Below, in pieces: positions 44,576 through 62,216 of a DNA stretch of 64,000 nucleotides (positions are counted from its first letter, which is position 1; each line of letters begins with the position of its first letter). Made by a program: the position numbers and the translations under genes. The DNA lies in assembly GCA_018433085.1 (NCBI GenBank), contig JAHDRW010000012.1, positions 20,606 through 84,605 of the forward strand, given 5' to 3'. This stretch comes from Deltaproteobacteria bacterium. GTDB taxonomy: Bacteria; Desulfobacterota; Desulfomonilia; UBA1062. The notes under the pieces were generated by a model. It searched no databases, had not been told where the DNA came from, and saw only the letters and a program-made list of their open reading frames with translations.

Positions 44576-44595
44576 GGTATCTCTCCTTGCAGATG

Positions 44596-46583: not shown

Positions 46584-46651
46584 CTTTCTTCTCCCTCTCA
46601 TGGTTCGATTGCCGTATGTTTGTTTCCCTGTCCTCTTGTGCCGGATATCCT

Positions 46652-48047: not shown

Positions 48048-48566
48048 CTTCTTGATAAGCAATGCAAGGGATCGAACCATGCGGCTTAGAATGGCGACCC
48101 CCAGCAACCCGAATCCCAGCGGGATGAACAGCTTGATCAGCCATCGGTATGGCAGACCCATCGGGGCTGCCGAACACTCGCTGATCATCCAGGAATTATG
48201 GAAAAAGGCCCATCCGTGCACCATGATGATGATCCCCCAGGGAAAAACTAGGAAAAGGGATCCGAAAAGCTCGATCTTTTCCCTGGTGCGGGACCGGAAC
48301 CTGCTGCTCATAACGTCAAGCCGGATATGGGTATCCTTCGCCACCGCATACGCAAGGCCGAACATGACGTTCACCGAATAGAGGTACCATTCCATTTCAT
48401 CCAGAACGACGAGACCGTTCGAGAAAAAATAGCGCAGAATCACCTGGGTAATGATCAGCACCAGCAGCACGCCATTCAACCACGCAAGCGTGTTGCCTAT
48501 GCGGACGATGCCCCTGTCGGTGAAATCACTGATGGTGAGGAGAGACGAGGAAATGTCATTCATCAT
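48039..48566 (-). CDS. dctQ: TRAP transporter small permease subunit (DctQ family)
   Basis: 175 aa with 4 TM segments. Its 3' end overlaps the dctM start by 9 nt. Confidence 0.75.
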   Translation of the reverse strand: MMNDISSSLLTISDFTDRGIVRIGNTLAWLNGVLLVLIITQVILRYFFSNGLVVLDEMEWYLYSVNVMFGLAYAVAKDTHIRLDVMSSRFRSRTREKIELFGSLFLVFPWGIIIMVHGWAFFHNSWMISECSAAPMGLPYRWLIKLFIPLGFGLLGVAILSRMVRSLALLIKKEQ

Positions 48567-48693
48567 ACTATCCGTCCACGTTTGATGATGGTGATCCGGA
48601 GGATGCCGGGCAAGAACCCCGGCACCGTCCAGATCGTGAATTTATGGTTCTCTTTAAGCCTCTTACAGTCGTATTGAAGCCTGCCGCAGCCGA

Positions 48694-49770
48694 TTACTTT
48701 TCCGGTTCCGGCCTGGGAAGAGTCCCGTACGCCAGCCAGTAATTGTAATCCGGGAAGAACTCCTGCATGTCGTCCCATACCTTCTTGAAGCTGGGATCCT
48801 GCTCTCTCAGATCCTTCACCACGTCCATCCATGCGGCATGAATGGAATCGAGCATGTCCTCCGACCACCGCTTGTTGATAACACCACGCTTCTTGGCGTT
48901 GTTCTTGATGATCGGGCCTTGGATACTTTCCACATAGGAAATACCCTCAAGCGTCGCGGCCCGGCAGGTCAGCTCGATCATGGTTCTCTGGGTCTCACTC
49001 ATCTTGTTCCATACATCCTTGTTGATCAGCAGCTCGATGATGGTCGAAGGCTGGTGCCACCCGGGGAAATAATTGTACTTCACGACCTTGTACAGCCCGG
49101 ACGGCTCGTCAATGGCGGGCGATCCGTTTTCCACGGCATCGATGGCCTTTTTCTCGAGCGCCGAGAACACCTCGCCGACAGGTACCAGCGTAACGTTGAC
49201 CCCGAGCTTCTCCAGGGCGCGACCACCGTGGCCTGCGATCCTCATCTTGAGCCCATTGAAGTCTTCCGGCTTCTCGACGGGTTTTGCAAACCAGCCGCCG
49301 CTGTCCGGACCCAGGATTCCGCAGACCAGAACCTTCACGTTATAGCCGTTCTGGTCGTAGAGCTCCTGATAGAGCTTCATGCCGTTGCCGTGATAGAGCC
49401 ACGCGAGGTATCCGTTTATCTCGGGCCCGAACGGCACGCTTCCAAACAGCGGGGCAGCCGGCATCTTGCCCTGCCAGTAGTTTGCGCAGGAATATCCGGC
49501 CTGGATCTTCCCGTTGGAGACGGCGTCCAGGACCTCGAACGGCGGTACAAGCTTCCCGGGATCATAGACCATCATCTGAATCGAGCCGTCACTCACCGCC
49601 TTGAGATTCTCCGCTGTCCACGAGATGGTGGTGCCAAGGCCCGGAGTCTGCATCCCGAAACAGCTCTGGACACGCATGCGCACATCGCCCGCTATCGCCG
49701 GAACCGCTGAAGCCACCAGGAAAAATGCCGAAAGAATCACCGTACAGATCGTTGTTGCAACCTTACTCAT
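48694..49770 (-). CDS. dctP: TRAP transporter periplasmic solute-binding protein (DctP family)
   Basis: Signal peptide plus a DctP-type fold (GSVPFGPE..., RIAGHGG motifs). gaaggggg RBS. Confidence 0.8.
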   Translation of the reverse strand: MSKVATTICTVILSAFFLVASAVPAIAGDVRMRVQSCFGMQTPGLGTTISWTAENLKAVSDGSIQMMVYDPGKLVPPFEVLDAVSNGKIQAGYSCANYWQGKMPAAPLFGSVPFGPEINGYLAWLYHGNGMKLYQELYDQNGYNVKVLVCGILGPDSGGWFAKPVEKPEDFNGLKMRIAGHGGRALEKLGVNVTLVPVGEVFSALEKKAIDAVENGSPAIDEPSGLYKVVKYNYFPGWHQPSTIIELLINKDVWNKMSETQRTMIELTCRAATLEGISYVESIQGPIIKNNAKKRGVINKRWSEDMLDSIHAAWMDVVKDLREQDPSFKKVWDDMQEFFPDYNYWLAYGTLPRPEPEK

Positions 49771-50295
49771 CGTTTCCCCCTTCCGCTCTTATATGATTCA
49801 TTTCCAAGTCCACCGAAACGCCCTCCTATTAGGGTGTTCCCTGATAAACGATCTCCTTCCGCAGAGGAGAATTTATCCTCGCTCACCCACCAGATGCGGC
49901 CTATGACGCCAGTGATGCCCGGCTATCCTGAAGCCAGAGCCGGCCAGTGATCGGTTTTATGGTTCTGTTCCCGACAAGGTCTATTGGATTTCGTATGATT
50001 TCGTAGCTGCCTCACTGTGCTGTTTTTTATGAACGTGACTGCCGGCTGCAACAGCTGGCAGACGCTCGCCAGTTTCTCACAATATTCCACATATATCAAC
50101 TCGACCTTATAGTCCGGCCTGGGATGTACCTGCTCCGGTTCGTTTATTTTCTCATTTTGTACTATTCCAACTGACCATGTTTTCTTCATGCTTTTTGTAA
50201 CCGCTCTATCTCTCGTCATCTCTCCTTTGGCGGCGCTTCCCCCTACCAGATTATCATTCGCTTTCTGAAAGGCCCATGCAGTCTGCATACCCTTC

Positions 50296-51555
50296 CTAGA
50301 AAACGACCTTCCCGACAGACGGCTTGTTTGATTCGAGGGCTTCGGCAAAGGTTTCCAGCCTGATCCCCGTTTTCTCTTCGTCGAAAAAGGTGTCGTCCAC
50401 GAGGTCGCCTTCGATGATGGTAGACAGGACACCGAGCTTTTTCTGAACATAGTCCGCGATGTAGTGCATGGTGATGGAGAACGGCTTGCAGGTCATTGCA
50501 TATGCGAAGATCCCGGCCTCCATGTCATAATCCCTGTATAACTGCTCCGTGTACTCCGCCTTGTACCTGACATCTCTGTTGAGATAGAAGTAGGCGGTGT
50601 TCTCGGCAACGCTGTCCAGAGGTCGCTCCGGGTCGCTCCGGTCAAAGGCAAACAACTGGGAGTACGCACTCGTAACGAGGCAGATTCCCAGGCTTTGCAG
50701 TTTCTTCGACAGGAATCTCATGGCAAACCAGTACGGAATGCCGTCCCAGTACACCCTGTGCTTCATGTTCTCGAAGGGGACGATCCCTTCCCTGATCCTC
50801 TCGTTCATCTCCTGTTTCATCAGCCGGTAATGGTCTGCCACCTCGGGTTTGTATCTGAGCACGAGGTTCGGGAAATTATGGGGCATCAGGTCGAAGTAGG
50901 TTGACGGCGAGGGTTTGTGCTTGTTTATCTTTATCATGTCCGTATATCCCTTCGCACTCTCGCTGCCGTTCCTCACGACCTCCCTGAGCCTGTCGAGATC
51001 GAACTTCTTTCCGGTAAACTCCTCGAGGAAACGAATGAGATCCCCTATCTGGCCCTTGATATGACCGATGACATCCTTTTCCTGTATTCCCGGGATGATA
51101 TAGGGCGTATCGATGTGTATCATGGGGACGTCCCAGTAGTGACTGAGATGCTCCCACCACTTGGTGATGAGGCTGCAGCTGTTGTTGGCGACCAGCAGGA
51201 GATCGGGCGCGGGCAGCGGGTCGAACGGGTCCAGGCCTTCAATATCAGCCAGGGTCGACCCGAGACCGTTGCGGCAATAGGTGCACAGATGATGCTCGTA
51301 CCCCTTGTCTTCAGTGATCTTGCAGTGCCGGTAAGCCGCGTGCCGCGCCCCGCATGTGGCTGCATACGCCTCCGGGAACAGCACGCAGAAGTCCATCGCC
51401 CACAGTATCTCGTTGGGAGCGGCCGTAGTGGTCCACACGATCGGCTTCCGTTTCGACTCCTTGATCTCGCGGGCTTCCCGGTAATGATCGACAATCAACT
51501 TGCCAAGCCGATTCTGGGATTCCAACCTGTTGCCGATTTTCACCTCTGTTCCCAT
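50296..51555 (-). CDS. 2-hydroxyacyl-CoA dehydratase / benzoyl-CoA reductase family subunit (HgdB-like), pair 2
   Basis: 419 aa paralog of 43331..44575 (shared LLLVANNSC / LLMVVSNAC and Cys positions). aaggag RBS. Confidence 0.75.
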   Translation of the reverse strand: MGTEVKIGNRLESQNRLGKLIVDHYREAREIKESKRKPIVWTTTAAPNEILWAMDFCVLFPEAYAATCGARHAAYRHCKITEDKGYEHHLCTYCRNGLGSTLADIEGLDPFDPLPAPDLLLVANNSCSLITKWWEHLSHYWDVPMIHIDTPYIIPGIQEKDVIGHIKGQIGDLIRFLEEFTGKKFDLDRLREVVRNGSESAKGYTDMIKINKHKPSPSTYFDLMPHNFPNLVLRYKPEVADHYRLMKQEMNERIREGIVPFENMKHRVYWDGIPYWFAMRFLSKKLQSLGICLVTSAYSQLFAFDRSDPERPLDSVAENTAYFYLNRDVRYKAEYTEQLYRDYDMEAGIFAYAMTCKPFSITMHYIADYVQKKLGVLSTIIEGDLVDDTFFDEEKTGIRLETFAEALESNKPSVGKVVF

Positions 51556-51569
51556 TCACAACTCCTTTT

Positions 51570-52355
51570 TTATTCGGATCCAAGCCTGGATTTTGCGACA
51601 AGGGCAGCACCAAAGGCAGTGACAATCTGTGGATCTTCAGGCACGGTTATTTCACGTTTCATCGTACTGGCAAGAAGCGAAACGATCGCATCGTTTCTCG
51701 CGACCCCGCCAGTCATCACTACCCTTCCTGTGTCCCCGGGACCGATCGAGTTGATCAGCCCGTAAACACGGCTGACAATCGATTCGTGCAGCCCTGCGGC
51801 AATGTCTTCCTGCGGTGTCCTGCGAGCGATGAGGGATACGATCTCGGTCTGGGCAAACACGGTGCACGTACTGCTTATTCTGATCCTGTTTCCGGATCTC
51901 CTCGATAATGCTGCCAGCTCGGCAACGCTCACTCCGAGGGTCTCTGCGGCCACCTCCAGGAATCTACCTGTTCCGGCTGCACACTTATCGTTCATGGCGA
52001 AGTTGACCACCTTACCCTCGTCGTTTATCTTGATCGCCTTGCTGTCCTGGCCGCCGATATCCACGACCAGCCTTGCATCGGGATAGAAGTGGTAGGCACC
52101 CACGGCGTTGCAGGTGATTTCCGACATCGTGTCCGCTGCGAAAGGCACACTGACCCGCCCATACCCTGTCGCAACTATGCGTTGAATGTCATCGAAGGTG
52201 TGGCCGAGCTCCTGTGCCGCATTTTCGACAACCTTCCGGGCCACTGCATACAGATCCGTACCAGTCGGGAATAATGCTGACCGGAAGACATGATCCTCCT
52301 TGAGAACAACGGCTTTCGATGTCTGCGATCCGATATCAACACCAGCTACTATCAT
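51570..52355 (-). CDS. HgdC/BcrAD-type ATPase 'activase' of 2-hydroxyacyl-CoA dehydratases (CoA-substrate-specific enzyme activase)
   Basis: MIVAGVDIGSQTSKAVVL (ASKHA-fold N-terminus) and NDKCAAGTGRFLE (cluster-bridging Cys motif), about 262 aa, as in HgdC. It is the only such ATPase in the cluster. Confidence 0.85.
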   Translation of the reverse strand: MIVAGVDIGSQTSKAVVLKEDHVFRSALFPTGTDLYAVARKVVENAAQELGHTFDDIQRIVATGYGRVSVPFAADTMSEITCNAVGAYHFYPDARLVVDIGGQDSKAIKINDEGKVVNFAMNDKCAAGTGRFLEVAAETLGVSVAELAALSRRSGNRIRISSTCTVFAQTEIVSLIARRTPQEDIAAGLHESIVSRVYGLINSIGPGDTGRVVMTGGVARNDAIVSLLASTMKREITVPEDPQIVTAFGAALVAKSRLGSE

Positions 52356-52377
52356 GGCTTCACCCTCATTCGTTGTT

Positions 52378-53532
52378 TTAGAGACTGAGCATTTCCAGAT
52401 ATCCCTGTATCCTCGTTCTCTGCGTCTCCAAAGATCCGGCTTCATGCCCTGTATTGAGCGTGATGTGGGCGATGTTCTGCTCTTCCAGCCTTTTTTTCAG
52501 CATGACGAACTCCAGATCAAAGGGGTCGCAGTACATTTCTCTCAATAGGATGACTCCCTGGATCCCGTTCTCCAGCACATAGTCCGCAACATAGTCGCCG
52601 TAGGTGGAAAGGGATCTGTCCTGTTCAATCCAGTTTTGGGGGTAGTGGTAGGTTGTACAGGGAGTGAGGCCCAGGTAGAAATCGGCATATGCCTCGACCG
52701 GGTCTCCGGAACAGGGCACATCGACCGAGAAATAGCGCGACCCGGTGAAAAAATCGTCCCCAACGATCACTGCACCCATCTCTTCGATCAGGTCCAGGAT
52801 CTCCTCTTCCGGCATGCCGCAGGGGTGTCCACAGACCATAATCTTCGGTTTTTCACCGGGCTCGCACTCCAGATCTTGGGCCTGAACGAGAAGCTTCTTC
52901 AGAAGCGAATTATACTCTTCCTTGGGCATGATCATCCCGGCGGCGATCGCCTTTGCCAGATCAGAGGACTTCAATAATCCGGGCCTGGTTTTCCTGATGT
53001 CATTCAATGCCCTCATAAGGGAACGTGTTTCATTGAAAAGACGAATGCTCTCACGGAGCTTATCCGGTGTTATGGCCTTGCCGGCGAACTCCTCGAGCCC
53101 GGATTTCAGCCTCTTGAGTTCGTTCAGCAGAAACGGGCGCGAGGCCTCGCTCATATTGAAGGGACGCCACATCTGATGAAAAAAGGCGAACTCATGATCC
53201 AGGCTCCAGACCTGAAAAAAGAACCTGACCTGGTCACAGATCAGCACCGCGGCAACCCCGTCCAGGGCATCATACTTCCCGGACAGCAAGTCTTCGAAGG
53301 TGCTCCGGACCGCCCCGCACGCATTGGTCATGAGGTGTCGGTTCGCATGGGTGATCGGCCCGTTGCCGCCGAAGAGCGTGACAGGCAGCAGACCTGCAGC
53401 ATGGACGAATTCTTCCGGAAAATACATGGGGAGGCAGCCGATGACCTTTCCCCCTGTATCATCTTTCCATTTTACTATTTCACTGTTCCGCCGAGAGTAA
53501 CGAAGCTTAAGATTATCCAAAATCGATTGCAT
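52378..53532 (-). CDS. 2-hydroxyacyl-CoA dehydratase / benzoyl-CoA reductase family subunit (HgdA-like), pair 2
   Basis: About 385 aa paralog of 44596..45702 (VIGCLPMYFPEEFVHAAGLLPVTLF versus FIGVMHPIVPQEVIHAAGLHPFRLF). First gene after the sigma-54 promoter. Confidence 0.75.
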   Translation of the reverse strand: MQSILDNLKLRYSRRNSEIVKWKDDTGGKVIGCLPMYFPEEFVHAAGLLPVTLFGGNGPITHANRHLMTNACGAVRSTFEDLLSGKYDALDGVAAVLICDQVRFFFQVWSLDHEFAFFHQMWRPFNMSEASRPFLLNELKRLKSGLEEFAGKAITPDKLRESIRLFNETRSLMRALNDIRKTRPGLLKSSDLAKAIAAGMIMPKEEYNSLLKKLLVQAQDLECEPGEKPKIMVCGHPCGMPEEEILDLIEEMGAVIVGDDFFTGSRYFSVDVPCSGDPVEAYADFYLGLTPCTTYHYPQNWIEQDRSLSTYGDYVADYVLENGIQGVILLREMYCDPFDLEFVMLKKRLEEQNIAHITLNTGHEAGSLETQRTRIQGYLEMLSL

Positions 53533-53597: not shown

Positions 53598-53613
53598 GGC
53601 AAGAACAGTACCA
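53598..53613 (-). promoter_or_regulatory. Sigma-54 promoter (TGGTAC-tgttc-TTGCC) of the HAD operon
   Basis: Minus-strand read of ggcaagaacagtacca. GG/GC spacing is canonical. 55-65 nt upstream of the first gene. A near-identical copy lies at 58631. Confidence 0.7.
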
Positions 53614-53720
53614 CCATCCCGGGCAGGACGATATTTGGGCTGGATTTATCAGATTAATCAAAAGGTTGTAAACAATTTGCCGAATCGGCGCATCATGGCC
53701 GGAATTTATCTCCCTCAGGG

Positions 53721-53770
53721 GCCTGTAACAATATCTAACAAACCATGCTCCATTATGCTACATGTCACAG
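53721..53770. promoter_or_regulatory. Conserved about 50-bp upstream activating sequence (copy 1) roughly 107 bp upstream of the sigma-54 promoter
   Basis: gcctgtaacaatatctaaca-aacc-atgctccattatgctacat-gt-cacag. 45/50 identical to 58753..58802. Contains helical-phased direct repeats TAACA(N6)TAACA and ATGCT(N5)ATGCT. Confidence 0.65.
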
Positions 53771-54027
53771 GCCGGGCCTTTTGTGACAGGACGGTAGGCG
53801 GTAAAAGGCTGCTTGACGGCGTAAATGCCGACTGTGCTGATCCATAGGGGAGGCTTTCTGCGAAGACAGTGGTCGTGTGCCTGGCTAATATTGATATTTC
53901 CGGCTTTTCCCAAGGGTATCTCGTCGCTTCGAACGCGACCGGCACGTCCGGTCACGCGCCTTGGATATACATGACACGGTGCAGCCGGGCGCTTACCTAC
54001 CTGCGCACGGCCGCACCCCTTATCCAG

Positions 54028-54528
54028 TTACTCGCCGAGATGCACGATGAGAACGGGTTTCGTGCACTTGCGGACAACATGCCTGGCGGTATAGTCCAGC
54101 AGGGCCTTCCCCACGGAGGTCACGGAATGCGCGCCCACAATGACCAGGTCGAACCCCTGCTCGTCGACCATGGTGAGGATGGTCTTCTCTGCATTCCCGA
54201 GGACAACGGTCACATTTTCGACAAACTCATCGAATTCGGCACCTTCGCACATTCGGGTGCAGGTGTCCTGAAGCCGCCTCTGAATGACTTCCAGGGCCTC
54301 CTGCTGATTTTTCTTCAGCAGTTCTTCCCACTTTTTTTCTCCCACGACAGAGCTCACCAGGGAAGACGTACTCTGAGACATTTTCTCGATGACATGCAGC
54401 GCGGTAATCTTTGCCTGAAATCGTTTGGCAATGCTGAGCGCATACCCGAATGCATGTTCCGCCCTCTCGGACAAGTCGGTCACATACAGGACCCGTTTGA
54501 AATCATAGTTCATGATCATTCCTTTCAT
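54028..54528 (-). CDS. Universal stress protein (UspA family)
   Basis: RVLYVTDLSE N-terminus and VIVGAHSVTSVGKALLDYTARHVVRKCTKPVLIV (ATP-binding G-2x-G-9x-G(S/T) region). Confidence 0.8.
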   Translation of the reverse strand: MKGMIMNYDFKRVLYVTDLSERAEHAFGYALSIAKRFQAKITALHVIEKMSQSTSSLVSSVVGEKKWEELLKKNQQEALEVIQRRLQDTCTRMCEGAEFDEFVENVTVVLGNAEKTILTMVDEQGFDLVIVGAHSVTSVGKALLDYTARHVVRKCTKPVLIVHLGE

Positions 54529-54745
54529 GCTTTATCAACAGTGACTTTCGTGCATCCCGGGACCGGTCACGCGCGCTTGCACGCAACGGACCCCGAGACG
54601 CTTCAAGATTCTTTCCCCGGAGAATTCACGCATGCCTCACGTATAACAGCCTCTCGGACGTGACGTCCATGGATCGTATCGTCGGCTATTCCCGGGCACG
54701 AGCCGTCCTTCCTCCCCTCTTCTCAAGAGGCCTGTTCTCGTGAGC

Positions 54746-56653
54746 CTACGGACGGATATCGTCCAGTCCCAGTTCGGCCAGTTTTTCCTTTGTGGGTATG
54801 CCGGTTTTCTTGTCCCATCCCCGGCACTCGTAGTAATCGTCCAGGGCATCCTGGACATCTTCTTTCCGAAGAAGTTTCTTCTTGTAGTAATCTTTCATCA
54901 CGTGTTCTTTGTCATCGGCTGTCTTGAGCGCCTTGAACCACTGCTGGGGTATCTGGCTATCGTCTCTCAACACGCCTTCCCTGACATTCGTCATCCTCGA
55001 TATGGTCCATACGCGTTCGACCGCCTTCATCACCGAAGGCACGTCGATATCGTGCCCGGTCGCCGCTGAATAAAGCTCGGCCAGCAGCCCCGCCGAATAA
55101 TACCGGTCGTTCCCTGCCCGGTTGCACACCCCCATGCAGCTCATGAGACAGACCCAGTCCTCGAAACACCGGGTGAAGCTGCCCAGTCTGAATCCGTCAT
55201 CAACAGCGAAGATCCGCTCCATGAGCTCGGGCGATCCTCCTACCCGTCCGCAATGACGCTTCATGGCATCGGGCGGAAGGTTCGGTACGGTCGTAGGCGA
55301 CCCGCCGTATGCGGAATACGGGCCCCTGGGGCTTACCAGCTGCTCGAATTCCATGGTGCCCAAAGCCCACAACCGCGGCTCCCAGATCACGTTGATTCCG
55401 TTAATCGTGTAGGCGTGCCCTTTGGCCTTCTCGCCCACAAACTCGATCATTCCTTCCCATCCCTCCGCCATGGCGTCCCCGAAGCCCTCGCGCGCCATCA
55501 TCATGTCCACGAGCCGGTTCACGCTCTCGTAGTCCCGCTTCAGCTCAAAGCCGATGTCTTCCTTCTTCAGCAGCCCCGCCTCGTAGAGATCGAAGGGAAA
55601 GTCCAGCAGCCCTTCCATTGTCTGGCCGCATAGCCCCAACCGGTCAAACTTATTGTAAATATATGCCGCCTGCTTGATATCGTTGATGGCAAATCTGGTC
55701 GCAAAAGCCGGTATGTTGATGAACGAGGTGATCCCCATGGTGAACCTGGAACACTCACCATCGTCAAACTCCAGTAGATCCTTGCACCCAACCAGACACG
55801 ACGTGCAGGCTACCCGAGACTTCTTGATGCTCTTGTACGAGGGAATGCCGAATGTCTTTGTCACCTCCTCGGGGGTCAGATGCTCGGTACTGAAATACTC
55901 AGTTATCAACCCTTCCCAACCTGCCATCATACCCAGATCCACCACCTGGTTCCGGGCCTTGAACTCCATCATCCGCTTGACCAGACCGGACACGCTCTTT
56001 TCGAACCGTTTGGGGTCGGCTATAGTCATGCCTTTTGTCCCGTACGCGACTACCGCCTTTAAATTCTTGGATCCCATTACGGCCCCAAGACCTCCCCTGC
56101 CAAGAGAGGATATGCCGTCAACATTGGCTTGCGCATTGGTCACCTGCTGCTCTCCTGCAGGCCCTACGCAAATCGTCCCCGCCCCGTCGTAGACGGTCTT
56201 CAGCTCCGCGGTCACCTCATACACGTCGCGGCCCCAGAGATGACGCGCATCCTCAACCGTTATCGTATCGTCGGTGATCACCACCATAACCGGGCTCTCG
56301 GATTTGCCTGTCAGTACGATATGATCATACCCAGCCCATTTCATCATGCTCGCAAAGCTCATGCTCCCCGCAGAGCTTCCTACCATCTTGCCGATCGGAA
56401 ACTTCGTGGTCGCAAATATCTTGGACGCTCCCGGAACCGATGTCCCCACAAGGGCTCCTGCCCCGAATACGATCGGATTCTCAGGCGCCCGGGGGTCTGT
56501 CCCCGGGATCATCGCGTCATACGCAAGCTTGTGATTGATCCCGTAACCCCCCAAAAACGACTCGACCATGCTCTCCTGTATAGGCTCCTCGCTCACCCGC
56601 CGATTCGTCAGATCCACGTATGCGACCTTCCCGCCAAATCCGTGCTTACTCAT
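54746..56653 (-). CDS. Aldehyde:ferredoxin oxidoreductase family protein (tungsten/molybdopterin), second copy
   Basis: MSKHGFGGKVAYVDLTN...FLGGYGINHKLAYDA...PENPIVFGAG...AAGSMS is the AOR N-domain; 635 aa. The start overlaps the stop of the upstream oxidoreductase gene. Confidence 0.85.
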   Translation of the reverse strand: MSKHGFGGKVAYVDLTNRRVSEEPIQESMVESFLGGYGINHKLAYDAMIPGTDPRAPENPIVFGAGALVGTSVPGASKIFATTKFPIGKMVGSSAGSMSFASMMKWAGYDHIVLTGKSESPVMVVITDDTITVEDARHLWGRDVYEVTAELKTVYDGAGTICVGPAGEQQVTNAQANVDGISSLGRGGLGAVMGSKNLKAVVAYGTKGMTIADPKRFEKSVSGLVKRMMEFKARNQVVDLGMMAGWEGLITEYFSTEHLTPEEVTKTFGIPSYKSIKKSRVACTSCLVGCKDLLEFDDGECSRFTMGITSFINIPAFATRFAINDIKQAAYIYNKFDRLGLCGQTMEGLLDFPFDLYEAGLLKKEDIGFELKRDYESVNRLVDMMMAREGFGDAMAEGWEGMIEFVGEKAKGHAYTINGINVIWEPRLWALGTMEFEQLVSPRGPYSAYGGSPTTVPNLPPDAMKRHCGRVGGSPELMERIFAVDDGFRLGSFTRCFEDWVCLMSCMGVCNRAGNDRYYSAGLLAELYSAATGHDIDVPSVMKAVERVWTISRMTNVREGVLRDDSQIPQQWFKALKTADDKEHVMKDYYKKKLLRKEDVQDALDDYYECRGWDKKTGIPTKEKLAELGLDDIRP

Positions 56654-58346
56654 GATCCTCTCCTTCCCCAGAAATCCCGTGTGGAAGATCTTCCTTTACC
56701 CGCAAAAAATCGTCCGCCCTCGTCAAGGCCCCGTACGGACAGTACCGGGCACAAATCCCGCAGTCTTCGCACTCCTGCGTAAACGATATCTCGTTGAGCT
56801 TGCCGAAAACCGTGTTCACCCTGACCTTGATGTTCGCCTTCAGCGGGTTGAAATAACCCAGCTTGGCCAACGAGCAGTAGTACGCGCAGGTCTGGCACCC
56901 CGTGCACTTCGAGGCGTCAATGAGTATCGGCACATCACACCTCAGGCACTGGTTCGACTCCCCTCTCGCTGTCTCGCAGTCAAATCCCTTGTCCACCTCT
57001 TGGAAATTGCCGATCCTCTCTTCCACGCTCAGAAGATTGTGCGGCCTCTTTCCCCGCAGGTGATGACCCTGCAAGGGTCGCGTCCTGAGATCCTCTCTCA
57101 GACGTGTCTCATCCTGTACAGAGGAGCCTCCCAGAAACCGGACAATGCCCTCGGCAGCCCTTCTCCCCTGCGCGATCGCCTCGGTCACCGAAGACGTGTA
57201 CAGCACGTCGCCTCCGGCAAACACCCCCTTGACCGAGGTCTGAAGCGTCCCCTCGTCAACCTGGAGAAACCCGTTCCGGTTGAACCTCAACTCAGAGGAC
57301 CCCGCCTGGAGATCGGGCATCTGCCCTGTGGCAACGATGACCGTATCCGCCGAAAAACTCAGCTTCGAACCCTGCCTGGCAACGGGCCGTCTCCTCCCGC
57401 TCTCGTCGGGCTCGCCCAGCTCCATCTCACAGCACTCCACACAGGTGATAACCTCTCCTTCGCGCACCACCGCGGTCGGCGCCACCAGATACATCACCTC
57501 GATCCCTTCCTGCTCCGCGCTTACAATCTCCTCTTCGGTCGCCGGCATCTCGTTCCTGGTGCGCCGGTAGAGAATATGAACCTCTTTGGCACCCAGCCTC
57601 AGGGCAGAGCGGGCCGCGTCGATCGCCGCGTTCCCACCACCGATCACCGCCACCTTCCCGCCCATGCTCACCGGCCGGTTCGCCCGCACCTTCTTCAGAA
57701 AATCCAGCGCGGTCATCACGCCCTCGCCCTCGATGCCCGGCACGTCGATCTCTGCAGACTTGTGCGCGCCCGTGGCAAGAAAAACCGCGCTGTATCCCTC
57801 ATCGAACAGACCCGAAATCGTGATGTCTTTCCCCAGCTCCGTGTTCAGATGAATCGGCACCCCGGAGAGCTCGATGTCCCTGATCTCCCTGCTCACGATA
57901 TCCAGCGGCAGCCGGTACTCCGGAATGCACGCCGTCATCATGCCGCCCGGAACGGATTCCCGCTCGAAGACACTCACACCGTATCCCCTCTCACGCAGGC
58001 AAACCGCTGCGGTCAGCCCCGCAGGACCCGATCCGATGACGGCGATCTTCTCCTTCTTCGTGGGCTCACCAAACTTCCTCGGCACAATCCCGGCCGTGTC
58101 GCTCGCATACCGCTTCACCCCATTGATCGATATCGAATCGGCCAGCTGCCGACAGTTGCACTTGTCCTCGCACGGCCTGAAACAAACCCTGCCCACCGTC
58201 TCCGGAAAGGGTATGACCTCCCGAATCACCGCAACAGCAGCCTCCGCATCGCCAATGGCCACGTACCTCAAATACCGCGGTATATCCACACGCGCAGGAC
58301 ACGCTTCCCTGCATGGCGCCATCCTCTTGGGCTCCTTGAACCTCAT
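56646..58346 (-). CDS. GltD/NfnB/SudA-like FAD- and NAD(P)H-binding oxidoreductase fused to a C-terminal 2x[4Fe-4S] ferredoxin domain; predicted electron-transfer subunit of the adjacent AOR
   Basis: N-terminal CREACP...GRVCFRPCEDKC (GltD-type FeS), IAVIGSGPAGL (FAD) and VAVIGGGNAAID (NAD(P)) motifs. C-terminal CTGCQTCAYYC...CEDCGICARYCP. Confidence 0.8.
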   Translation of the reverse strand: MRFKEPKRMAPCREACPARVDIPRYLRYVAIGDAEAAVAVIREVIPFPETVGRVCFRPCEDKCNCRQLADSISINGVKRYASDTAGIVPRKFGEPTKKEKIAVIGSGPAGLTAAVCLRERGYGVSVFERESVPGGMMTACIPEYRLPLDIVSREIRDIELSGVPIHLNTELGKDITISGLFDEGYSAVFLATGAHKSAEIDVPGIEGEGVMTALDFLKKVRANRPVSMGGKVAVIGGGNAAIDAARSALRLGAKEVHILYRRTRNEMPATEEEIVSAEQEGIEVMYLVAPTAVVREGEVITCVECCEMELGEPDESGRRRPVARQGSKLSFSADTVIVATGQMPDLQAGSSELRFNRNGFLQVDEGTLQTSVKGVFAGGDVLYTSSVTEAIAQGRRAAEGIVRFLGGSSVQDETRLREDLRTRPLQGHHLRGKRPHNLLSVEERIGNFQEVDKGFDCETARGESNQCLRCDVPILIDASKCTGCQTCAYYCSLAKLGYFNPLKANIKVRVNTVFGKLNEISFTQECEDCGICARYCPYGALTRADDFLRVKEDLPHGISGEGEDHE

Positions 58347-58630
58347 ACGCTTACCCCCTTGATGTTTTTTGTAAACCTTTCACCTTCGACATCTCAATGC
58401 AGCTGTGCCCGTTGGAGTTATGGTATTTTTTCCCACAAGCAATGAATCCGATTTCTTCATTCTTGCTGCAATTGCCTCAGCCATGGTCTTTGAAGCCTCA
58501 CGCGCTCGATGCGTCCCTGGCTGGAATCAGTCGGGCAGGGCTCACATGGTCTGTAAGTTCTTCTGCCGGGAGCACATTGTTGGTTTTTCGATAATCTTCC
58601 CCAAGCGACTGAGCCCTGCGGATATTCTCA

Positions 58631-58646
58631 GGCAAAAACAGTACCA
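58631..58646 (-). promoter_or_regulatory. Sigma-54 promoter (TGGTAC-tgttt-TTGCC) of the oxidoreductase-AOR-usp operon
   Basis: Minus-strand read of ggcaaaaacagtacca; the flanking bases are also conserved with the copy at 53598. Confidence 0.7.
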
Positions 58647-58752
58647 TCATACCGGGGAGGACGCTTATTCAGTTATATCGACTATAGAATTGGTTACTTA
58701 TAGGGTATTTGCCAAGTTTCTCACCGCCATGGCCTTCAAGAAGGACACCGGC

Positions 58753-58802
58753 GCCTGTAACAATATCTAACAGGTAATGCTCCATTATGCTACATACCAC
58801 AG
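58753..58802. promoter_or_regulatory. Conserved about 50-bp upstream activating sequence (copy 2)
   Basis: gcctgtaacaatatctaaca-ggta-atgctccattatgctacat-ac-cacag. Same 107-bp spacing to its sigma-54 promoter as copy 1. Confidence 0.65.
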
Positions 58803-59068: not shown

Positions 59069-61075
59069 TCAGTACGGCAGATTGTACTTCACCATCTTCC
59101 GGTATAACGTGTTCCGGGAGATATTCAGATGACTGGCTATCTTTGACTTGGATATATTTGATTGTATCAGATCGCAGATGATTTTCTTTTCCATGTCCTC
59201 CAGTGTCGGGTAGTTCTCGAAAACAGGTTCCTTCTGTTCCACCGCCGCGCATGCGGCCCGCTGCTCGGACCCGGAATGGATTATCTCCTGAGGAATATCA
59301 TCACTCGTGATGGTTTCTCCTTCGGCTATGTTATACGACCTCTCCAGTATGTTCTGAAGCTCTCGTACGTTCCCGGGCCAGGGATATCTCTCGAGCATTT
59401 CCAGAACGTTTTTGTCGACCTTTGTTATCCCCCTGTTGTTACATTTATTCAATTTCTTCAGAATATTGATGACCAGAAGGGGTATGTCTTCGGTCCTTTC
59501 CCGCAGAGGAAAAAGCTCGATGGAAAAGACGTTCAGGCGATAGTAAAGATCTTCCCGGAAATTTCTCTTGAGGATCTCTTCTTTCAGGTCTTTATTTGTC
59601 GCTGCGATTATCTTGACATCGACAGGAATGATGTTTTTCCCGCCGATCCTCATGATCTCCTTGTTCTCGATGACCCTTAGCAGAATCGACTGCAGTTCGA
59701 GCGGCATTTCTCCGATTTCGTCCAGGAATATCGTGCCACCGTCGGCAAGCTCGAACTTGCCGGGATTCCCGCCCCTGACCGATCCGGTAAACGCCCCCTC
59801 GGCATACCCGAAAAGCTCGCTCGCGATAAGCTCCCGGGGTATCGCAGAGCAGTTGATGGCCACGAAGGGCTTGCCGGACCGCATGCCCTCGTTGTGGATC
59901 GCCTGGGCAAAAATATCTTTGCCGGTACCGCTCTCTCCAAAGAGCAGCACGTTTGAATCGGTCTTCGATGCGATCTTGGCGATTTCTATCAGTTTCAAAA
60001 ATCTAGGATTGCGTGATACAATATGAGAAAAGGTGAATTTTGCTTTGGCCCCGATCATATCCGCCACCAGTTTCTTGGCTCTCTTTATCTCACTGAAGAT
60101 GATCACCTTTCCGTAGATTTCGTTATTGCACGTCTTGATTGTCTGGGTGGTTAACATATAATTCGCCCACCTGCTGTTTATGAACAGCGGGACCTGCTTG
60201 TCGATGACGTTCGTCCCGTTCATCAGATAGGGAAACAGCTTTTCGTTTTCGCTCCCCAGGAACTCCTTGATGTTACGCCCCACGATATCCTCTTCTACCT
60301 GGAACATGCTCCGGGCGTTTTCATTGGTGAAGATGATATCTCCCTGGTTGTCGACTGCAACAAGTGCCTCGGGAATGGAGCAGATCACGGCGTTCTTTAG
60401 GTTCTCGGCGATCTGGGTCTCGCGATAGGCCTTCTGGATCTGCAGGTTCTTTTCGATTGCATTCGCTGCGGCAACGACCATCCCCAGGGTGTGGGAATGT
60501 GCATTGGGACAGGGACATACCATGTTCAGCACCCCCAGGATGTTCCCCTCATAGTCGTGAATGGGAGCCGAGGAACAGGTATATTTGTGGAACATCAGGC
60601 AGTAGTGCTCGCTGCCGAATATCTGCACGGGCTTGTCCAATCGGATCACCGCGCCCACCCCGTTCGTGCCGATATATTTTTCCTGCATGCAGGCCCCGGG
60701 GCGATAGTTCCAGGAAGAGAGCGTTTCCATGACCTCGGGATTGCCGAGGGTGAAAATCAGGGTGCCCTCCGAATCCGACAGGGAGCAGATATACCTCGAG
60801 CCGAACCCGGCCGTTATTACGAAATTATACAAGTTCTCCAGAAAAGGATAGCTGGTCTTTATGAGATGATCGTGCTTTTCCTGGACCTTTCGCAACTCAT
60901 CCTCAGACAGGATCTGCGGTATTTCGCTGAGGTAGGGATCGATGCCCCGTTTCCTCGCTTCTTCCCAGGATGCCAGAACATGCCCGTGAATGACCTTTTT
61001 ATTCACCAGGTTGCCAGAGACAAAATTCTCCCACTCCTTGAGCATCGCTTCATACTTGTCTTTGATTTTGCTCAT
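59069..61075 (-). CDS. Sigma-54-dependent transcriptional activator (bacterial enhancer-binding protein) with N-terminal GAF/PAS sensory region, AcoR/PrpR-like
   Basis: GESGTGKDIFAQAIH (Walker A), GAFTGS (the GAFTGA sigma-54 contact motif), DGGTIFLDEIGEM (Walker B), the arginine-finger region and a C-terminal Fis-type HTH (ISRNTLYRKM). About 670 aa from MSKIKDK with aaggagcag RBS. Confidence 0.9.
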   Translation of the reverse strand: MSKIKDKYEAMLKEWENFVSGNLVNKKVIHGHVLASWEEARKRGIDPYLSEIPQILSEDELRKVQEKHDHLIKTSYPFLENLYNFVITAGFGSRYICSLSDSEGTLIFTLGNPEVMETLSSWNYRPGACMQEKYIGTNGVGAVIRLDKPVQIFGSEHYCLMFHKYTCSSAPIHDYEGNILGVLNMVCPCPNAHSHTLGMVVAAANAIEKNLQIQKAYRETQIAENLKNAVICSIPEALVAVDNQGDIIFTNENARSMFQVEEDIVGRNIKEFLGSENEKLFPYLMNGTNVIDKQVPLFINSRWANYMLTTQTIKTCNNEIYGKVIIFSEIKRAKKLVADMIGAKAKFTFSHIVSRNPRFLKLIEIAKIASKTDSNVLLFGESGTGKDIFAQAIHNEGMRSGKPFVAINCSAIPRELIASELFGYAEGAFTGSVRGGNPGKFELADGGTIFLDEIGEMPLELQSILLRVIENKEIMRIGGKNIIPVDVKIIAATNKDLKEEILKRNFREDLYYRLNVFSIELFPLRERTEDIPLLVINILKKLNKCNNRGITKVDKNVLEMLERYPWPGNVRELQNILERSYNIAEGETITSDDIPQEIIHSGSEQRAACAAVEQKEPVFENYPTLEDMEKKIICDLIQSNISKSKIASHLNISRNTLYRKMVKYNLPY

Positions 61076-62072
61076 AGCTGCTCCTTCGATAGGCATTATT
61101 ATGTCGGCAAGCCATCTCCCTTTCCCGTGATCGGGGACCGCGGGAATAGAGCTGGTCAAAACCGGTCCGGATGTGCTCGCGCCGGTTGACGCCACCGTCC
61201 GGTACATGATGTACAGAAATTTCACGGTCTCCCGGCAGATGGTCACCTGCATGGCGAGAACCCTTGAGAGTCAGTACAGAAAGGTCTCCACCCTCTTGGA
61301 TGTACGGGATGAGCGTCAATACAGAAAGATCGCCGAACGGCCCGGAACATGCGGAGAAAAGGCCGCATCCAGGCGCTTCTCCTCCTGTTTTCCGGGGGCG
61401 AATCATGACGTGCGTGTGATCGTGCCGAGAAAGAAACTCCCTGTCACCCGCAGGCATGCGTTCCGCAACAAGGCAGCTTTGTTCGTGAACGTGCCGGAAG
61501 CAAGACTGCATCATTCGAGAAGCTTCCTCCTTCTCTGGGTGCTTACCTATTCAAGAATTCACAGGTGTCCGCCGGTACAAAACTGGTTTGCCATTCTGCT
61601 TACCGTGAGCCCTCCCCCCTCTCACGCGTATTCAGGGAAGACACTCACTACAGTGTCTCAACATAAAACAATTGACGATATTGATTAATAGATCATGTTT
61701 GACCAGCATTTGCAAGAGACAAATACCGTTGCAGGGGCAACCCTGCTCCCGGGAACACCCTTGCACGCCATAGCAATGAGGACCAGGCGGCGACGATTCT
61801 TCCGTGGTCTGGCCCGCGTATCGTTCCGAGGAGTCATCAGGGCAGCACCGGACACAGACTGCAAGATACCTGGTACAATATGAAACGTAGTGTATTGTTA
61901 TGAAACAATCCCTCAGACCACCCGCTCGGGACGGTAGAGGATCTTTTATTTCATAAGGTTTTGTTATTTCACCATATTTAAAATTGTTCCCCGAATTGGT
62001 TCGGTCCTTGCTAAATAAAGGGCAATCAGGAAAACCTGACTCTCACTCCCATAAAGTGAGAACCCTCCTCTT

Positions 62073-62106
62073 ACGCTGGTGGCCGTAACCGGCCACCAGA
62101 TTTTTT
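62073..62106 (+). terminator. Intrinsic terminator (perfect 10-bp stem CTGGTGGCCG-taac-CGGCCACCAG followed by T6)
   Basis: Seen directly in the sequence. It has no protein-coding gene upstream on the + strand and is preceded by a C/U-rich stretch ccctcctct. Confidence 0.7.
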
Positions 62107-62176
62107 CCTGATGGTGCGCCATTTGCTGGAAAAGAAGAGAACGCACACTCATTCATATCTTGATACTTCCTCAAGG

Positions 62177-62216
62177 GCCGGTACGCACCGATCATGCGCG
62201 TACCGGCATTTTTTTC
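62177..62216 (+). terminator. Second intrinsic terminator (GCCGGTACGCG stem, T7 tail)
   Basis: Seen directly in the sequence, 100 bp after the first. Preceded by a small hairpin with a CUUCC loop. Confidence 0.7.

What the first reader, a model, noticed from the sequence alone, without database searches (positions are those of the whole stretch)
53598..58802. Duplicated promoter module: identical sigma-54 core plus conserved 50-bp upstream element in front of two adjacent operons
Both minus-strand operons start with a near-identical -24/-12 element: ggcaaGaacagtaccaCcatCccgg versus ggcaaAaacagtaccaTcatAccgg, read as TGGTAC-N5-TTGCC. Both have a 45/50-identical element exactly about 107 bp further upstream. 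That element contains phased direct repeats (TAACA...TAACA, ATGCT...ATGCT) typical of enhancer-binding-protein sites. The sigma-54 activator gene (59069-61075) lies immediately upstream of copy 2. This strongly suggests one regulator co-controls the AOR/oxidoreductase/Usp operon and the HAD/TRAP/CoA-ligase operon as one regulon.
Basis: seen in the sequence. Interest (0 to 1): 0.7.

Follow-up and report, generated by a model that had tools for sequence, protein, structure and literature searches.

The report
Shared sigma-54 enhancer-promoter cassette, one regulon
Two neighbouring operons, and probably two or three further nearby transcription units, carry almost the same sigma-54 promoter and upstream activator-binding site, next to the gene for a matching activator protein; this is an ordinary and well-known way for anaerobic bacteria to switch on a catabolic gene island.

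Summary
Two blocks recur 5032/5033 bp apart: a 53-nt block (46/53 identical) and a 34-nt block (30/34). The 34-nt block holds TGGTACTGTT(C/T)TTGCC, a good -24/-12 sigma-54 element. The upstream block is best read as two 17-bp dyads, TGTAGCATAATGGAGCA and TGTTAGATATTGTTACA (TGT-N11-RCA), 22 bp apart. They are centred about -166 and -144 from the predicted start.

Both dyads are identical in the two copies. The linker and the ~87-nt spacer are not conserved, yet spacing is kept to within 1 bp in three species. The element is not a mobile repeat and not an RNA.

The adjacent gene encodes the only enhancer-binding protein in the window (MimR_N/GAF/PAS, AAA+ with GAFTGS, HTH_8). Its homologues elsewhere (46-51% identical) sit beside sigma-54-type -24/-12 elements (mostly TGGTAC/TGGCAT-N5-YTGC). 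In six of seven loci these carry TGT-N11-ACA dyads, five of them with a dyad at -139 to -144.

The same dyad type also precedes sigma-54-like promoters for a putative outer-membrane protein gene and for a highly conserved small RNA. A related pair precedes an acetoin-dehydrogenase-like operon. Binding and transcription starts remain untested.

The parts
59069..61075 (-). Enhancer-binding protein gene (668 aa): MimR_N/GAF/PAS sensor, AAA+ sigma-54 interaction domain, Fis-type HTH
   Evidence: Pfam hits are Sigma54_activat 2.3e-66, AAA_lid_14, GAF and HTH_8. Walker A is GESGTGKD and the sigma-54 contact loop is GAFTGS. It is the only such gene in the window (tblastn). It is 96% identical to P0001, which carries precomputed MimR_N; PAS is listed for the 46-51% homologues.
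58750..58802 (-). Enhancer (UAS) of the upper operon: dyad D1 58778-58794 TGTAGCATAATGGAGCA and dyad D2 58756-58772 TGTTAGATATTGTTACA
   Evidence: Supported. It is 92-94% conserved against two related species, where flanking intergenic DNA is 62-80%.
58631..58646 (-). Sigma-54 -24/-12 element TGGTACTGTTTTTGCC; predicted start near 58620; the conserved block spans 58630-58663
   Evidence: Supported. The 34-nt block is 33/34 conserved in relatives.
54028..58346 (-). Upper operon: GltD-like Fe-S flavoprotein 56646-58346, tungsten-type aldehyde:ferredoxin oxidoreductase 54746-56653, Usp 54028-54528
   Evidence: Pfam and NCBIfam. The same gene order occurs in L007.
53718..53770 (-). Enhancer (UAS) of the lower operon: D1 53746-53762 and D2 53724-53740, both identical to the upper copy
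   Evidence: Supported. The relative has one substitution in each dyad, which explains why the exact-pattern scan missed it.
53656..53668 (+). IHF-consensus match AATCAAAAGGTTG between the enhancer and the promoter (lower copy only)
   Evidence: Exact match to WATCAANNNNTTR, centred about -74. It is weak evidence: the relative has two mismatches, and the upper copy has no such site.
53598..53613 (-). Sigma-54 -24/-12 element TGGTACTGTTCTTGCC; predicted start near 53587; the conserved block spans 53597-53630
   Evidence: Supported. The 16-nt core is invariant in relatives.
41548..53532 (-). Lower operon: HgdB/BcrC-like, activator ATPase, HgdA/BcrB-like, TRAP DctPQM, enoyl-CoA hydratase, two more HGD-D subunits, acyl-CoA ligase
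   Evidence: Pfam and NCBIfam. Synteny is the same in L013 and L025. Co-transcription of the whole stretch is inferred; there is a 525-nt gap before dctP with no sigma-54 element.
29503..29626 (+). Probable further target. Dyads 29503-29519 TGTATCGTTATCAAACA and 29524-29540 TGTTTCATATTGTTACA (15/17 to D2), then TGGTATAGTGCTTGCT at 29611-29626. Lies upstream of 30045-31169 (374 aa, N-terminus looks like a signal peptide by eye, weak OMP beta-barrel hit)
   Evidence: Supported. A D2-like site with up to 3 mismatches is expected 0.02 times per window.
61871..62012 (+). Probable further target. Dyads 61871-61887 (D2 type, inverted, centred about -144) and 61891-61907, then TGGTTCGGTCCTTGCT at 61997-62012. 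Transcribed divergently from the activator gene
   Evidence: Supported. The dyads and the promoter are conserved in L001 and L002.
62023..62205 (+). Two tandem candidate small RNAs. sRNA-1 runs about 62023-62106 and has three hairpins, a single-stranded CCCUCCUCUU stretch and a terminator. A second -24/-12-like element lies at 62112-62127. sRNA-2 runs about 62138-62205
   Evidence: A + strand terminator at 62076-62099 followed by a T run was found by the scan; a second hairpin plus T run at about 62167-62205 was read from the sequence. The fold z-scores are -8.0 and -3.1. sRNA-1 is 98.8% identical in relatives, against 87% for the surrounding locus. A 1-nt indel falls in a loop. There is no Rfam match.
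40636..40775 (-). Related module. Dyads 40759-40775 TGTTTCAATATTGAACA (about -142) and 40735-40751 (about -118), then TGGTACGCTTGTTGC at 40636-40650. Lies upstream of the E1alpha/E1beta/ADH/ECH/E2/E3/LplA/LipA operon (31476-40448)
   Evidence: Supported. In relatives the dyad is the perfect palindrome TGTTCCAATATGGAACA. That is 15/17 identical to the dyad beside the homologous activator in L018. Whether the window's activator or a paralogue acts here is open.

Best explanation
Each of the two intergenic regions is a complete sigma-54 enhancer-promoter cassette.

Sigma-54 RNA polymerase sits as a closed complex on TGGTAC-N5-TTGCC. Two 17-bp dyads lie about 110 bp upstream of that -24 element (TGT-N11-RCA, 22 bp centre to centre, so on one face of the helix). 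They recruit dimers of an enhancer-binding protein. On sensing its ligand through the MimR_N/GAF/PAS module, the protein assembles into an AAA+ ring. It then loops over the bendable AT-richer spacer, possibly helped by IHF at the lower promoter, and uses ATP to open the promoter.

Both dyads are base-for-base identical at the two promoters, so one protein must serve both. The best candidate is the activator encoded at 59069-61075, immediately upstream. The two operons are therefore switched on together. One is the aldehyde-oxidoreductase operon. The other is the dehydratase/reductase-like, TRAP-transporter and CoA-ligase operon.

The same dyad type sits in front of a putative outer-membrane protein gene and of a small-RNA locus. 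A related pair sits in front of the acetoin-dehydrogenase-like operon. Together these suggest a regulon of four or five promoters spread over 33 kb.

Shown: the sequence elements, their conservation, their geometry and the domain content of the activator. Inferred: binding, looping, the effector, the transcription starts and operon extents.
For: The dyads are 17/17 identical between the copies. In contrast the 5-nt stretch between them is 1/5 identical, and the 87-nt spacer is no better than shuffles.

In cross-species comparison the upper copy's enhancer is 92-94% conserved and its promoter block 97%, against 62-80% for flanks. The related E1 module shows 84% and 80% against 54-63%.

Dyad centres lie at -166/-144 in six sequences and -165/-143 in one, despite compensating indels.

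The activator has Sigma54_activat, Walker A, GAFTGS and HTH_8, and it is the only one in the window. Synteny of activator, enhancer and operon holds in the related MAG lineage, two GTDB species representatives plus Logan contigs.

Seven loci holding homologous activators (46-51% identical) were examined. Each has a sigma-54-type -24/-12 element next to the activator gene (TGGTAC/TGGCAT/TGGCAC-N5-YTGC or GTGC). Six have TGT-N11-ACA dyads upstream: centred at -139 to -144 with a partner 22-24 bp away in five, and at -128 in one. The seventh (L022) has a different extended palindrome. The background frequency of such dyads is 3.2e-4 per position.

GTTNNATATTGTNNCA occurs four times in the window against 0.00 expected. 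Each copy lies 70-110 nt upstream of a -24/-12 element.

No sigma-70 consensus is present in either intergenic region.

Published regulon reconstructions describe exactly this type. They report TGT/ACA half-sites 9-12 bp apart, multiple sites per promoter, sites 100-250 bp upstream, and the activator gene next to its targets (PMC6615313; PMC4641369).
Against: There is no experimental datum: no mapped 5' end, no binding assay, and rpoN was not seen because it lies outside the window.

The -24 and -12 boxes deviate from the strict consensus (TGGTAC for TGGCAC, TTGCC for TTGCW).

Only three closely related species (about 87% nucleotide identity) carry the element, so the phylogenetic footprint is shallow. 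For the lower copy the contrast is modest: enhancer 89% and promoter block 85%, against 73-86% for flanks.

The activator family is very large (7825 hits at E<=1e-30), and the rest of the genome could encode a paralogue with the same specificity.

The IHF match is present in only one copy.

The dyads are imperfect palindromes, with 5 of 8 arm positions paired.

The outer-membrane-gene module has a different enhancer distance (-105/-126), and it could not be checked in relatives.
Confidence: 0.7

Rival explanations
1. The cassettes are real sigma-54 enhancer-promoters, but the protein that binds the dyads is a paralogous activator encoded elsewhere in the genome. On this view the gene at 59069-61075 serves other targets, for example only the small-RNA locus or the E1 operon.
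For: The family is huge and its HTH recognition helices are nearly uniform (SRSTLYRK-type), so specificity cannot be read from sequence. The closest homologues outside the lineage sit next to E1/E2-type operons, not AOR or dehydratase operons. Only 64 kb of a 191-kb contig, and nothing else of the genome, could be inspected.
Against: This is the only activator in the window. It lies 267 nt from the upper enhancer. The arrangement is conserved in the related MAG lineage. Published surveys find most activator genes next to their targets (PMC6615313).
Confidence: 0.17
2. The similarity is a neutral remnant of a segmental duplication of a regulatory region, and one or both copies are no longer functional.
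For: Positions that sigma-54 or an activator need not read are also shared. Examples are the N5 between -24 and -12 (TGTTC vs TGTTT), the dyad interiors, and 18 nt upstream of -24. This points to common ancestry rather than convergence.
Against: A neutral remnant would decay evenly. Here the blocks are 87-88% identical while the DNA between them is random-like. Spacing is kept to within 1 bp through compensating indels. Both copies are conserved above background across species. Both precede operons that have no other recognisable promoter.
Confidence: 0.04
3. The conserved blocks belong to a dispersed repeat (REP/MITE-like) or to a structured RNA (leader, riboswitch or 3' element) rather than to protein-binding DNA.
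For: The blocks lie 258-267 nt downstream of the stop codons of Usp and of the activator gene, so they could in principle be transcribed by read-through. No consensus terminator was found there.
Against: An exact-pattern scan of 185,579 species genomes found the 20-specified-base enhancer pattern only at the orthologous locus of two related MAGs. The four metagenome hits are unrelated AT-rich or tandem-repeat sequence with no promoter. Rfam gives no hit at gathering score. Folding z-scores are -0.5 and +1.4 for the two cassettes and -0.3 for the long leader.
Confidence: 0.02

Closest known systems
RedR1/RedR2-controlled resorcinol degradation cluster of Aromatoleum (Azoarcus) anaerobium (PMC10084136)
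   Same: Both are anaerobic catabolic islands of about 25 kb. Both have several sigma-54 promoters that share conserved upstream activating sequences more than 100 bp upstream (-136 to -120 in Porf14). Both have IHF sites between enhancer and promoter. In both, the activators are GAF-PAS-AAA+-Fis-HTH proteins encoded inside the cluster. A PDH-like E1/E2/E3 enzyme is part of the island.
   Different: The host is a different phylum and the pathway enzymes differ. There is a single activator gene here, not a near-identical pair. The enhancer lies further upstream (-144/-166). No experimental data exist here. Sequence relatedness to RedR was not tested.
TGT-N10-12-ACA enhancers of NifA/FhlA type, as reconstructed for many activators in Clostridiales and Desulfovibrio (PMC6615313; PMC4641369)
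   Same: Half-sites are TGT and ACA, 11 bp apart. There are two sites per promoter, 100-250 bp upstream of the -24/-12 element. The activator gene is adjacent. One activator often serves several operons. Sigma-54 control of aor (AorR) and of 2-hydroxyacyl-CoA dehydratase operons (LeuR) is already described in clostridia.
   Different: Here one activator is predicted to serve both enzyme types together. The dyad interiors (AGCATAATGGA, TAGATATTGTT) are specific to this lineage. One dyad ends GCA, not ACA.
AcoR / MimR / DhaR-type one-component activators (N-terminal MimR_N-GAF-PAS sensor)
   Same: The domain order is the same. The nearest homologues are annotated 'transcriptional regulator of acetoin/glycerol metabolism' and sit beside acetoin-dehydrogenase-like E1/E2 operons.
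   Different: No NCBIfam equivalog reaches its cut-off: DhaR scores 410 against 551, and PrdR 399 against 795. The nearest relative outside the lineage is only about 50% identical. The effector is unknown.
Sigma-54-dependent small RNAs next to activator genes. Four ncRNAs are in the Desulfovibrio vulgaris regulome (PMC4641369). Pxr of Myxococcus is an sRNA with three predicted stem-loops (SL1-SL3) and paralogues (PMC5684412 and PMC5568312, titles and abstracts); its sigma-54 dependence and its position next to an activator gene are from my own recollection.
   Same: The candidate RNAs at 62023-62205 have a -24/-12 element, an upstream dyad pair and intrinsic terminators. sRNA-1 has three hairpins. 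They lie beside the activator gene and occur in tandem.
   Different: There is no sequence or Rfam relation to any described family. Expression is unverified. No target was found.

Membership tests
Sigma-54 (-24/-12) promoter | GG and GC dinucleotides exactly 10 nt apart within TGGCAC-N5-TTGCW-like boxes | tested here: met
   TGGTACTGTTCTTGCC and TGGTACTGTTTTTGCC differ from the consensus at two or three positions; GG and GC are in register. The same TGGTAC variant is used next to four homologous activators.
Sigma-54 (-24/-12) promoter | Located in non-coding DNA upstream of, and in the orientation of, the gene served | tested here: met
   Both lie on the minus strand. The last base of the -24/-12 match is 65 nt upstream of the ATG at 53532 and 284 nt upstream of the ATG at 58346, giving predicted leaders of about 55 and 274 nt.
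Sigma-54 (-24/-12) promoter | Transcription starts about 12 nt downstream of the GC and depends on rpoN | not testable with these tools
   No transcript data are available, and rpoN is not in the window.
Bacterial enhancer-binding protein (AAA+ sigma-54 activator) | Sigma54_activat AAA+ domain with Walker A and the GAFTGA sigma-54 contact loop | tested here: met
   PF00158 scores 2.3e-66. GESGTGKD and GAFTGS are present. The last residue of the loop varies, as in functional variants listed in PMC4641369.
Bacterial enhancer-binding protein (AAA+ sigma-54 activator) | C-terminal Fis-type HTH and an N-terminal sensory module | tested here: met
   HTH_8 scores 8.9e-8 and GAF 3.5e-8. MimR_N is precomputed for the 96%-identical P0001; PAS is listed for the 46-51% homologues.
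Upstream activating sequence (enhancer) of the TGT-N11-ACA type | Dyad-symmetric sites, usually two or more, 100-250 bp upstream of the promoter | tested here: met
   There are two 17-bp sites 22 bp apart, centred at about -166 and -144. One ends GCA instead of ACA, and the arms pair at 5 of 8 positions.
Upstream activating sequence (enhancer) of the TGT-N11-ACA type | Conserved in sequence and position in orthologous loci while the surrounding DNA drifts | tested here: met
   Shown. The depth is limited to three close species.
Upstream activating sequence (enhancer) of the TGT-N11-ACA type | Bound by the cognate activator and required for activation | not testable with these tools
   This needs EMSA or footprinting and reporter mutagenesis.
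Named activator equivalogs (AcoR, DhaR, PrdR, NifA and others) | Score above the curated NCBIfam cut-off | tested here: not met
   The best matches are DhaR at 410.6 bits against a cut-off of 551, and PrdR at 398.8 against 795. It is a family member but not an orthologue of a named regulator.
Dispersed repeat / mobile element | Many copies at unrelated loci | tested here: not met
   Genome and metagenome pattern scans find only the orthologous locus plus chance hits.
Known structured RNA family | Rfam covariance-model match or exceptional folding energy | tested here: not met
   There are no hits at gathering score. The z-scores are -0.5, +1.4 and -0.3.

The most novel reading that the evidence does not exclude
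A single MimR_N/GAF/PAS activator runs a five-promoter regulon spread over about 33 kb: the aldehyde oxidoreductase operon, the dehydratase/TRAP/CoA-ligase operon, the acetoin-dehydrogenase-like operon, an outer-membrane channel gene and two tandem small RNAs. The regulon would have grown by en-bloc copying of a whole enhancer-promoter cassette with its spacing preserved. The tandem sigma-54-dependent small RNAs are nearly invariant and carry CU-rich anti-Shine-Dalgarno stretches. They would add a post-transcriptional arm (a feed-forward loop) to the catabolic switch in an uncultured deltaproteobacterium.
Probability: 0.35. Interest if true: 0.45.

Novelty: new member of a known kind. Interest (0 to 1): 0.3.

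Why it matters
The result gives a concrete, testable regulon map for an uncultured anaerobe. It names one sensor-activator, a defined 39-bp enhancer and at least two co-regulated operons, probably four or five. These link an aldehyde oxidoreductase, an ATP-driven dehydratase/reductase-like system, a TRAP transporter and a CoA ligase into one pathway. That linkage helps in guessing the unknown substrate.

The enhancer and promoter are compact enough to be moved into a reporter host, as was done for the RedR system. It does not change what is known about sigma-54 regulation.

Tried and rejected
- **RNA reading of the cassettes and of the 274-nt leader of the upper operon.** Rfam gives nothing at gathering score and folding energies are not better than shuffles. 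A 34-codon ORF in that leader is broken by a 1-nt indel in relatives.
- **Mobile-repeat reading.** The genome and metagenome scans rule it out. The four metagenome hits were inspected and are chance matches: AT-rich DNA and a tandem repeat.
- **Small conserved islands in the spacer (GGCCATG, GGCAAAT).** GGCAAAT is not kept in relatives, so it is treated as chance.
- **IHF.** A perfect consensus occurs only at the lower promoter and at the E1 promoter. The upper promoter has no match with one mismatch or fewer, so IHF is kept only as a possibility.
- **Internal sigma-54 promoter before dctP (49771-50295).** None was found.
- **Minus-strand sigma-54 promoter for the activator gene or for the ACAD operon next to the 29.5-kb dyads.** Nothing convincing was found.
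- **Target search for the candidate small RNAs against 26 translation-start regions of the window.** Energies were no better than for shuffled RNAs.
- **Homologues of the small RNAs near other activators (L016-L022).** None were found.

Full report
**Observation.** The two minus-strand intergenic regions were read directly and aligned. One is 53718-53770 vs 58750-58802 (53 nt, 46/53, offset 5032). The other is 53597-53630 vs 58630-58663 (34 nt, 30/34, offset 5033). The core TGGTACTGTT(C/T)TTGCC is found only at 53598-53613 and 58631-58646. The class pattern TGGYAC-N5-TTGC has three hits in 64 kb against 0.15 expected. The 43-nt enhancer core matches both copies with no mismatch when its 4-nt linker is left free, against 0.00 expected. 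The 87/86 nt between the blocks are no more alike than shuffled sequence. What is shared is two discrete blocks at a fixed distance, not a duplicated stretch.

**Genes.** All of the following are on the minus strand.
- 59069-61075 encodes a sigma-54 activator.
- The upper operon follows: a GltD-like Fe-S flavoprotein (56646-58346), an aldehyde:ferredoxin oxidoreductase (54746-56653) and a Usp protein (54028-54528).
- The lower operon comes next. It holds an HgdB/BcrC-like subunit (52378-53532), an activator-type ATPase, an HgdA/BcrB-like subunit, a TRAP transporter (DctPQM), an enoyl-CoA hydratase, two more HGD-D subunits and an acyl-CoA ligase (41548-43233).
- A small ABM-fold ORF follows.
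- Last is an acetoin/pyruvate-dehydrogenase-like operon: E1alpha, E1beta, Zn-ADH, ECH, E2, E3, LplA and LipA (31476-40448).

The activator has Walker A GESGTGKD, the sigma-54 contact loop GAFTGS and a Fis-type HTH. It is the only such gene in the window.

**Anatomy of the upstream block.** Read on the transcribed strand, the block is TGTAGCATAATGGAGCA, then 5 nt, then TGTTAGATATTGTTACA. These are two 17-bp sites of the form TGT-N11-(G/A)CA, 22 bp centre to centre. Taking the start as 12 nt downstream of the C of TTGC, the dyad centres lie at -166/-144 for the lower copy and -165/-143 for the upper. Both dyads are 17/17 identical between the copies. All four differences in the 43-nt core fall in the linker.

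**Conservation.** A scan of one genome per species for AGCAT-N5-AGCAT-N4-TGTTA-N5-TGTTA hit only two MAGs, 'Deltaproteobacteria bacterium' LM3-B1m and SM3-B3m. Both hits are at the orthologous upper locus, which is 87% identical in nucleotides to the window. The lower locus of the same lineage was recovered through the first gene of the operon. It carries one substitution in each dyad, which is why the exact pattern missed it.

Conservation against the window by segment:

| Module | Enhancer | Promoter block | Flanking intergenic DNA |
|---|---|---|---|
| Upper copy | 92-94% | 97% | 62-80% |
| Lower copy | 89% | 85% | 73-86% (modest contrast) |

Enhancer-promoter spacing is identical in six sequences and 1 bp shorter in one. 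This holds even though the spacer has diverged strongly and carries compensating +1/-1 indels. That is the signature of a face-of-helix constraint.

**Alternatives excluded.** The metagenome scan gave four hits that proved to be unrelated AT-rich DNA or a tandem repeat, so the element is not a dispersed repeat. Rfam finds nothing. The cassettes and the 274-nt leader fold no better than shuffles. Neither intergenic region holds a sigma-70-type consensus.

**Evidence from relatives of the activator.** Outside its own lineage (96% identity), the best database hits are only about 50% identical. Seven such loci from different taxa were fetched. In each, the activator gene lies divergently next to an operon of short-chain acyl-CoA or acetoin-type metabolism. 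Four of these are (AbfD-like)-E1alpha-E1beta-ADH-SDR-ECH-E2 operons, homologous to the third operon of the window. The intergenic region always carries a sigma-54 element (TGGTAC/TGGCAT-N5-YTGC, or GTGC in two loci).

Dyads found in these loci:

| Locus | TGT-N11-ACA dyad centres |
|---|---|
| L016 | -140 and -162 |
| L018 | -141 and -163 |
| L019 | -142 and -164 |
| L017 | -144 and -120 |
| L020 (Desulfomonile tiedjei) | -139 and -117 |
| L021 | -128 |
| L022 | a different extended palindrome, no dyad of this form |

Strict TGT-N11-ACA occurs at 3.2e-4 per position in these sequences. A dyad within a few bases of -142 in five unrelated intergenic regions is therefore far beyond chance. This ties the dyad type and its position to this activator subfamily. 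It is the strongest indirect support for the enhancer reading and for pairing the window's enhancer with the adjacent gene.

**The regulon is probably larger.** Listing all dyads in the window and searching GTTNNATATTGTNNCA (four hits, 0.00 expected) revealed two more modules with the D2-type dyad.
- **29503-29540 (+).** Two strict dyads lie 21 bp apart, and the proximal one is 15/17 identical to D2. They sit 70 nt upstream of TGGTATAGTGCTTGCT (29611-29626). Downstream is a 374-aa protein whose N-terminus looks like a signal peptide and which gives a weak outer-membrane beta-barrel hit.
- **61871-61907.** This pair lies divergently upstream of the activator gene. Its D2-type member is centred at -144 from TGGTTCGGTCCTTGCT (61997-62012, +). 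It is followed by an 85-nt transcript-like unit ending in a strong + strand terminator. Then come a second -24/-12-like box (TGGTACGCCGTTTGCT in relatives) and a second terminated unit.

The first unit folds into three hairpins with a single-stranded CCCUCCUCUU stretch (z = -8.0). It is 98.8% identical in relatives whose genome is 87% identical, and its only difference is a 1-nt indel in a loop. These are good candidates for sigma-54-dependent small RNAs. No Rfam family matches and no target could be predicted.

The third TGGTAC-N5-TTGC element (40636-40650) precedes the E1 operon and has dyads at about -142 and -118. These are conserved in two relatives. There the distal dyad is the perfect palindrome TGTTCCAATATGGAACA, 14/17 identical to the D2-type dyads. 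It is also 15/17 identical to the site beside the homologous activator in L018. Whether the window's activator or an unseen paralogue acts at this promoter cannot be decided from 64 kb.

**Mechanism.** The best-supported model is the standard one. Sigma-54 holoenzyme is held closed at -24/-12. Activator dimers sit on two same-face dyads about 110 bp upstream of the -24 element. Ligand sensing through the MimR_N/GAF/PAS module triggers assembly of the AAA+ ring. The spacer loops, with IHF possibly helping at the lower promoter, where an exact WATCAANNNNTTR lies at about -74. ATP hydrolysis then opens the promoter. Identical dyads mean one protein and one signal for both operons. Sequence, geometry, conservation and protein domains are shown. 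Binding, effector, starts and operon extents are inferred.

**Comparison with what is known.** Comparative reconstructions in Clostridiales and Desulfovibrio describe TGT/ACA half-sites 9-12 bp apart. They also report several sites per promoter, distances of 100-250 bp, adjacent activator genes and multi-operon regulons. They include sigma-54 control of aor genes, of 2-hydroxyacyl-CoA dehydratase operons and of ncRNAs (PMC6615313; PMC4641369).

The closest worked example is the resorcinol cluster of Aromatoleum anaerobium. It has three sigma-54 promoters with shared enhancers and IHF sites, GAF-PAS activators encoded in the 25-kb cluster, and dependence on rpoN and ihfA shown in E. coli (PMC10084136). 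The window's activator is not an orthologue of any named regulator, because all NCBIfam equivalogs score below cut-off.

**Verdict.** The finding is real and its interpretation is supported. It is a new member of a well-known kind. Its value is local: a clean, portable enhancer-promoter cassette and a predicted regulon for an uncultured anaerobe. The candidate small RNAs are the most interesting by-product. Interest is 0.3.

Noticed in passing
window 61997-62205 (+): Two tandem candidate small RNAs, each preceded by a sigma-54-like -24/-12 box and ended by a + strand hairpin plus T run. They lie between the SPM-domain gene and the activator gene. The first is 98.8% identical in relatives (genome background 87%), has three hairpins and exposes CCCUCCUCUU. 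There is no Rfam family and no predicted target.
   Followed up: partly
window 29503-29626 (+), gene 30045-31169: A further dyad pair plus sigma-54-like promoter lies upstream of a putative outer-membrane beta-barrel protein whose N-terminus looks like a signal peptide. The predicted leader is about 410 nt. The enhancer distance (-105/-126) differs from the other modules. It could not be checked in relatives.
   Followed up: partly
window 40636-40775 (-), operon 31476-40448: A third TGGTAC-N5-TTGC promoter, with its own conserved dyad pair, lies in front of an acetoin-dehydrogenase-like operon (E1/E2/E3, ADH, ECH, LplA, LipA). In other taxa the homologous operon sits directly beside the homologous activator gene. 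This lineage may therefore have moved or expanded the ancestral regulon.
   Followed up: partly
loci L016-L021 and window: Across this activator subfamily a TGT-N11-ACA dyad sits at -139 to -144 from the predicted start in taxonomically distant loci. A partner lies 22-24 bp away on either side. The enhancer geometry is unusually fixed.
   Followed up: partly
window 13132-19141: A 986-aa glycyl-radical enzyme (PFL-like plus Gly_radical, 16181-19141, +) and a second aldehyde:ferredoxin oxidoreductase (13132-15093, -) lie upstream. An ADP-forming acyl-CoA synthetase (24482-26596) and a long acyl-CoA dehydrogenase (26777-28645) are also present. The window looks like a large anaerobic catabolic island.
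   Followed up: no
window 61265-61334: A 25-nt direct repeat occurs twice, 45 bp apart (TGAGAGTCAGTACAGAAAGGTCTCC and TGAGCGTCAATACAGAAAGATCGCC), 190-260 nt upstream of the activator's start codon. It may be an operator or promoter element of the activator gene itself.
   Followed up: no
window ~58083-58211; L001, L002, L008, L010: Three independent MAG assemblies of the related species break their contigs at the same place, about 135-265 nt into the GltD-like gene just downstream of the upper promoter. A Logan contig (L007) reads through. This suggests strain variation or a paralogous copy that confuses assembly.
   Followed up: no
window 53614-53630 and 58647-58663: The promoter blocks stay conserved for about 18 nt upstream of the -24 box (CGTCCTSCCCGGKATGR), more than sigma-54 is known to need. 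In relatives the upper copy keeps this stretch and the lower copy has an indel. It may be a second protein site or simply shared ancestry.
   Followed up: partly
window 61076-61252: The longest ORF of the activator extends 59 codons upstream of the start used by all homologues. The extension is not conserved as protein and should not be annotated.
   Followed up: yes
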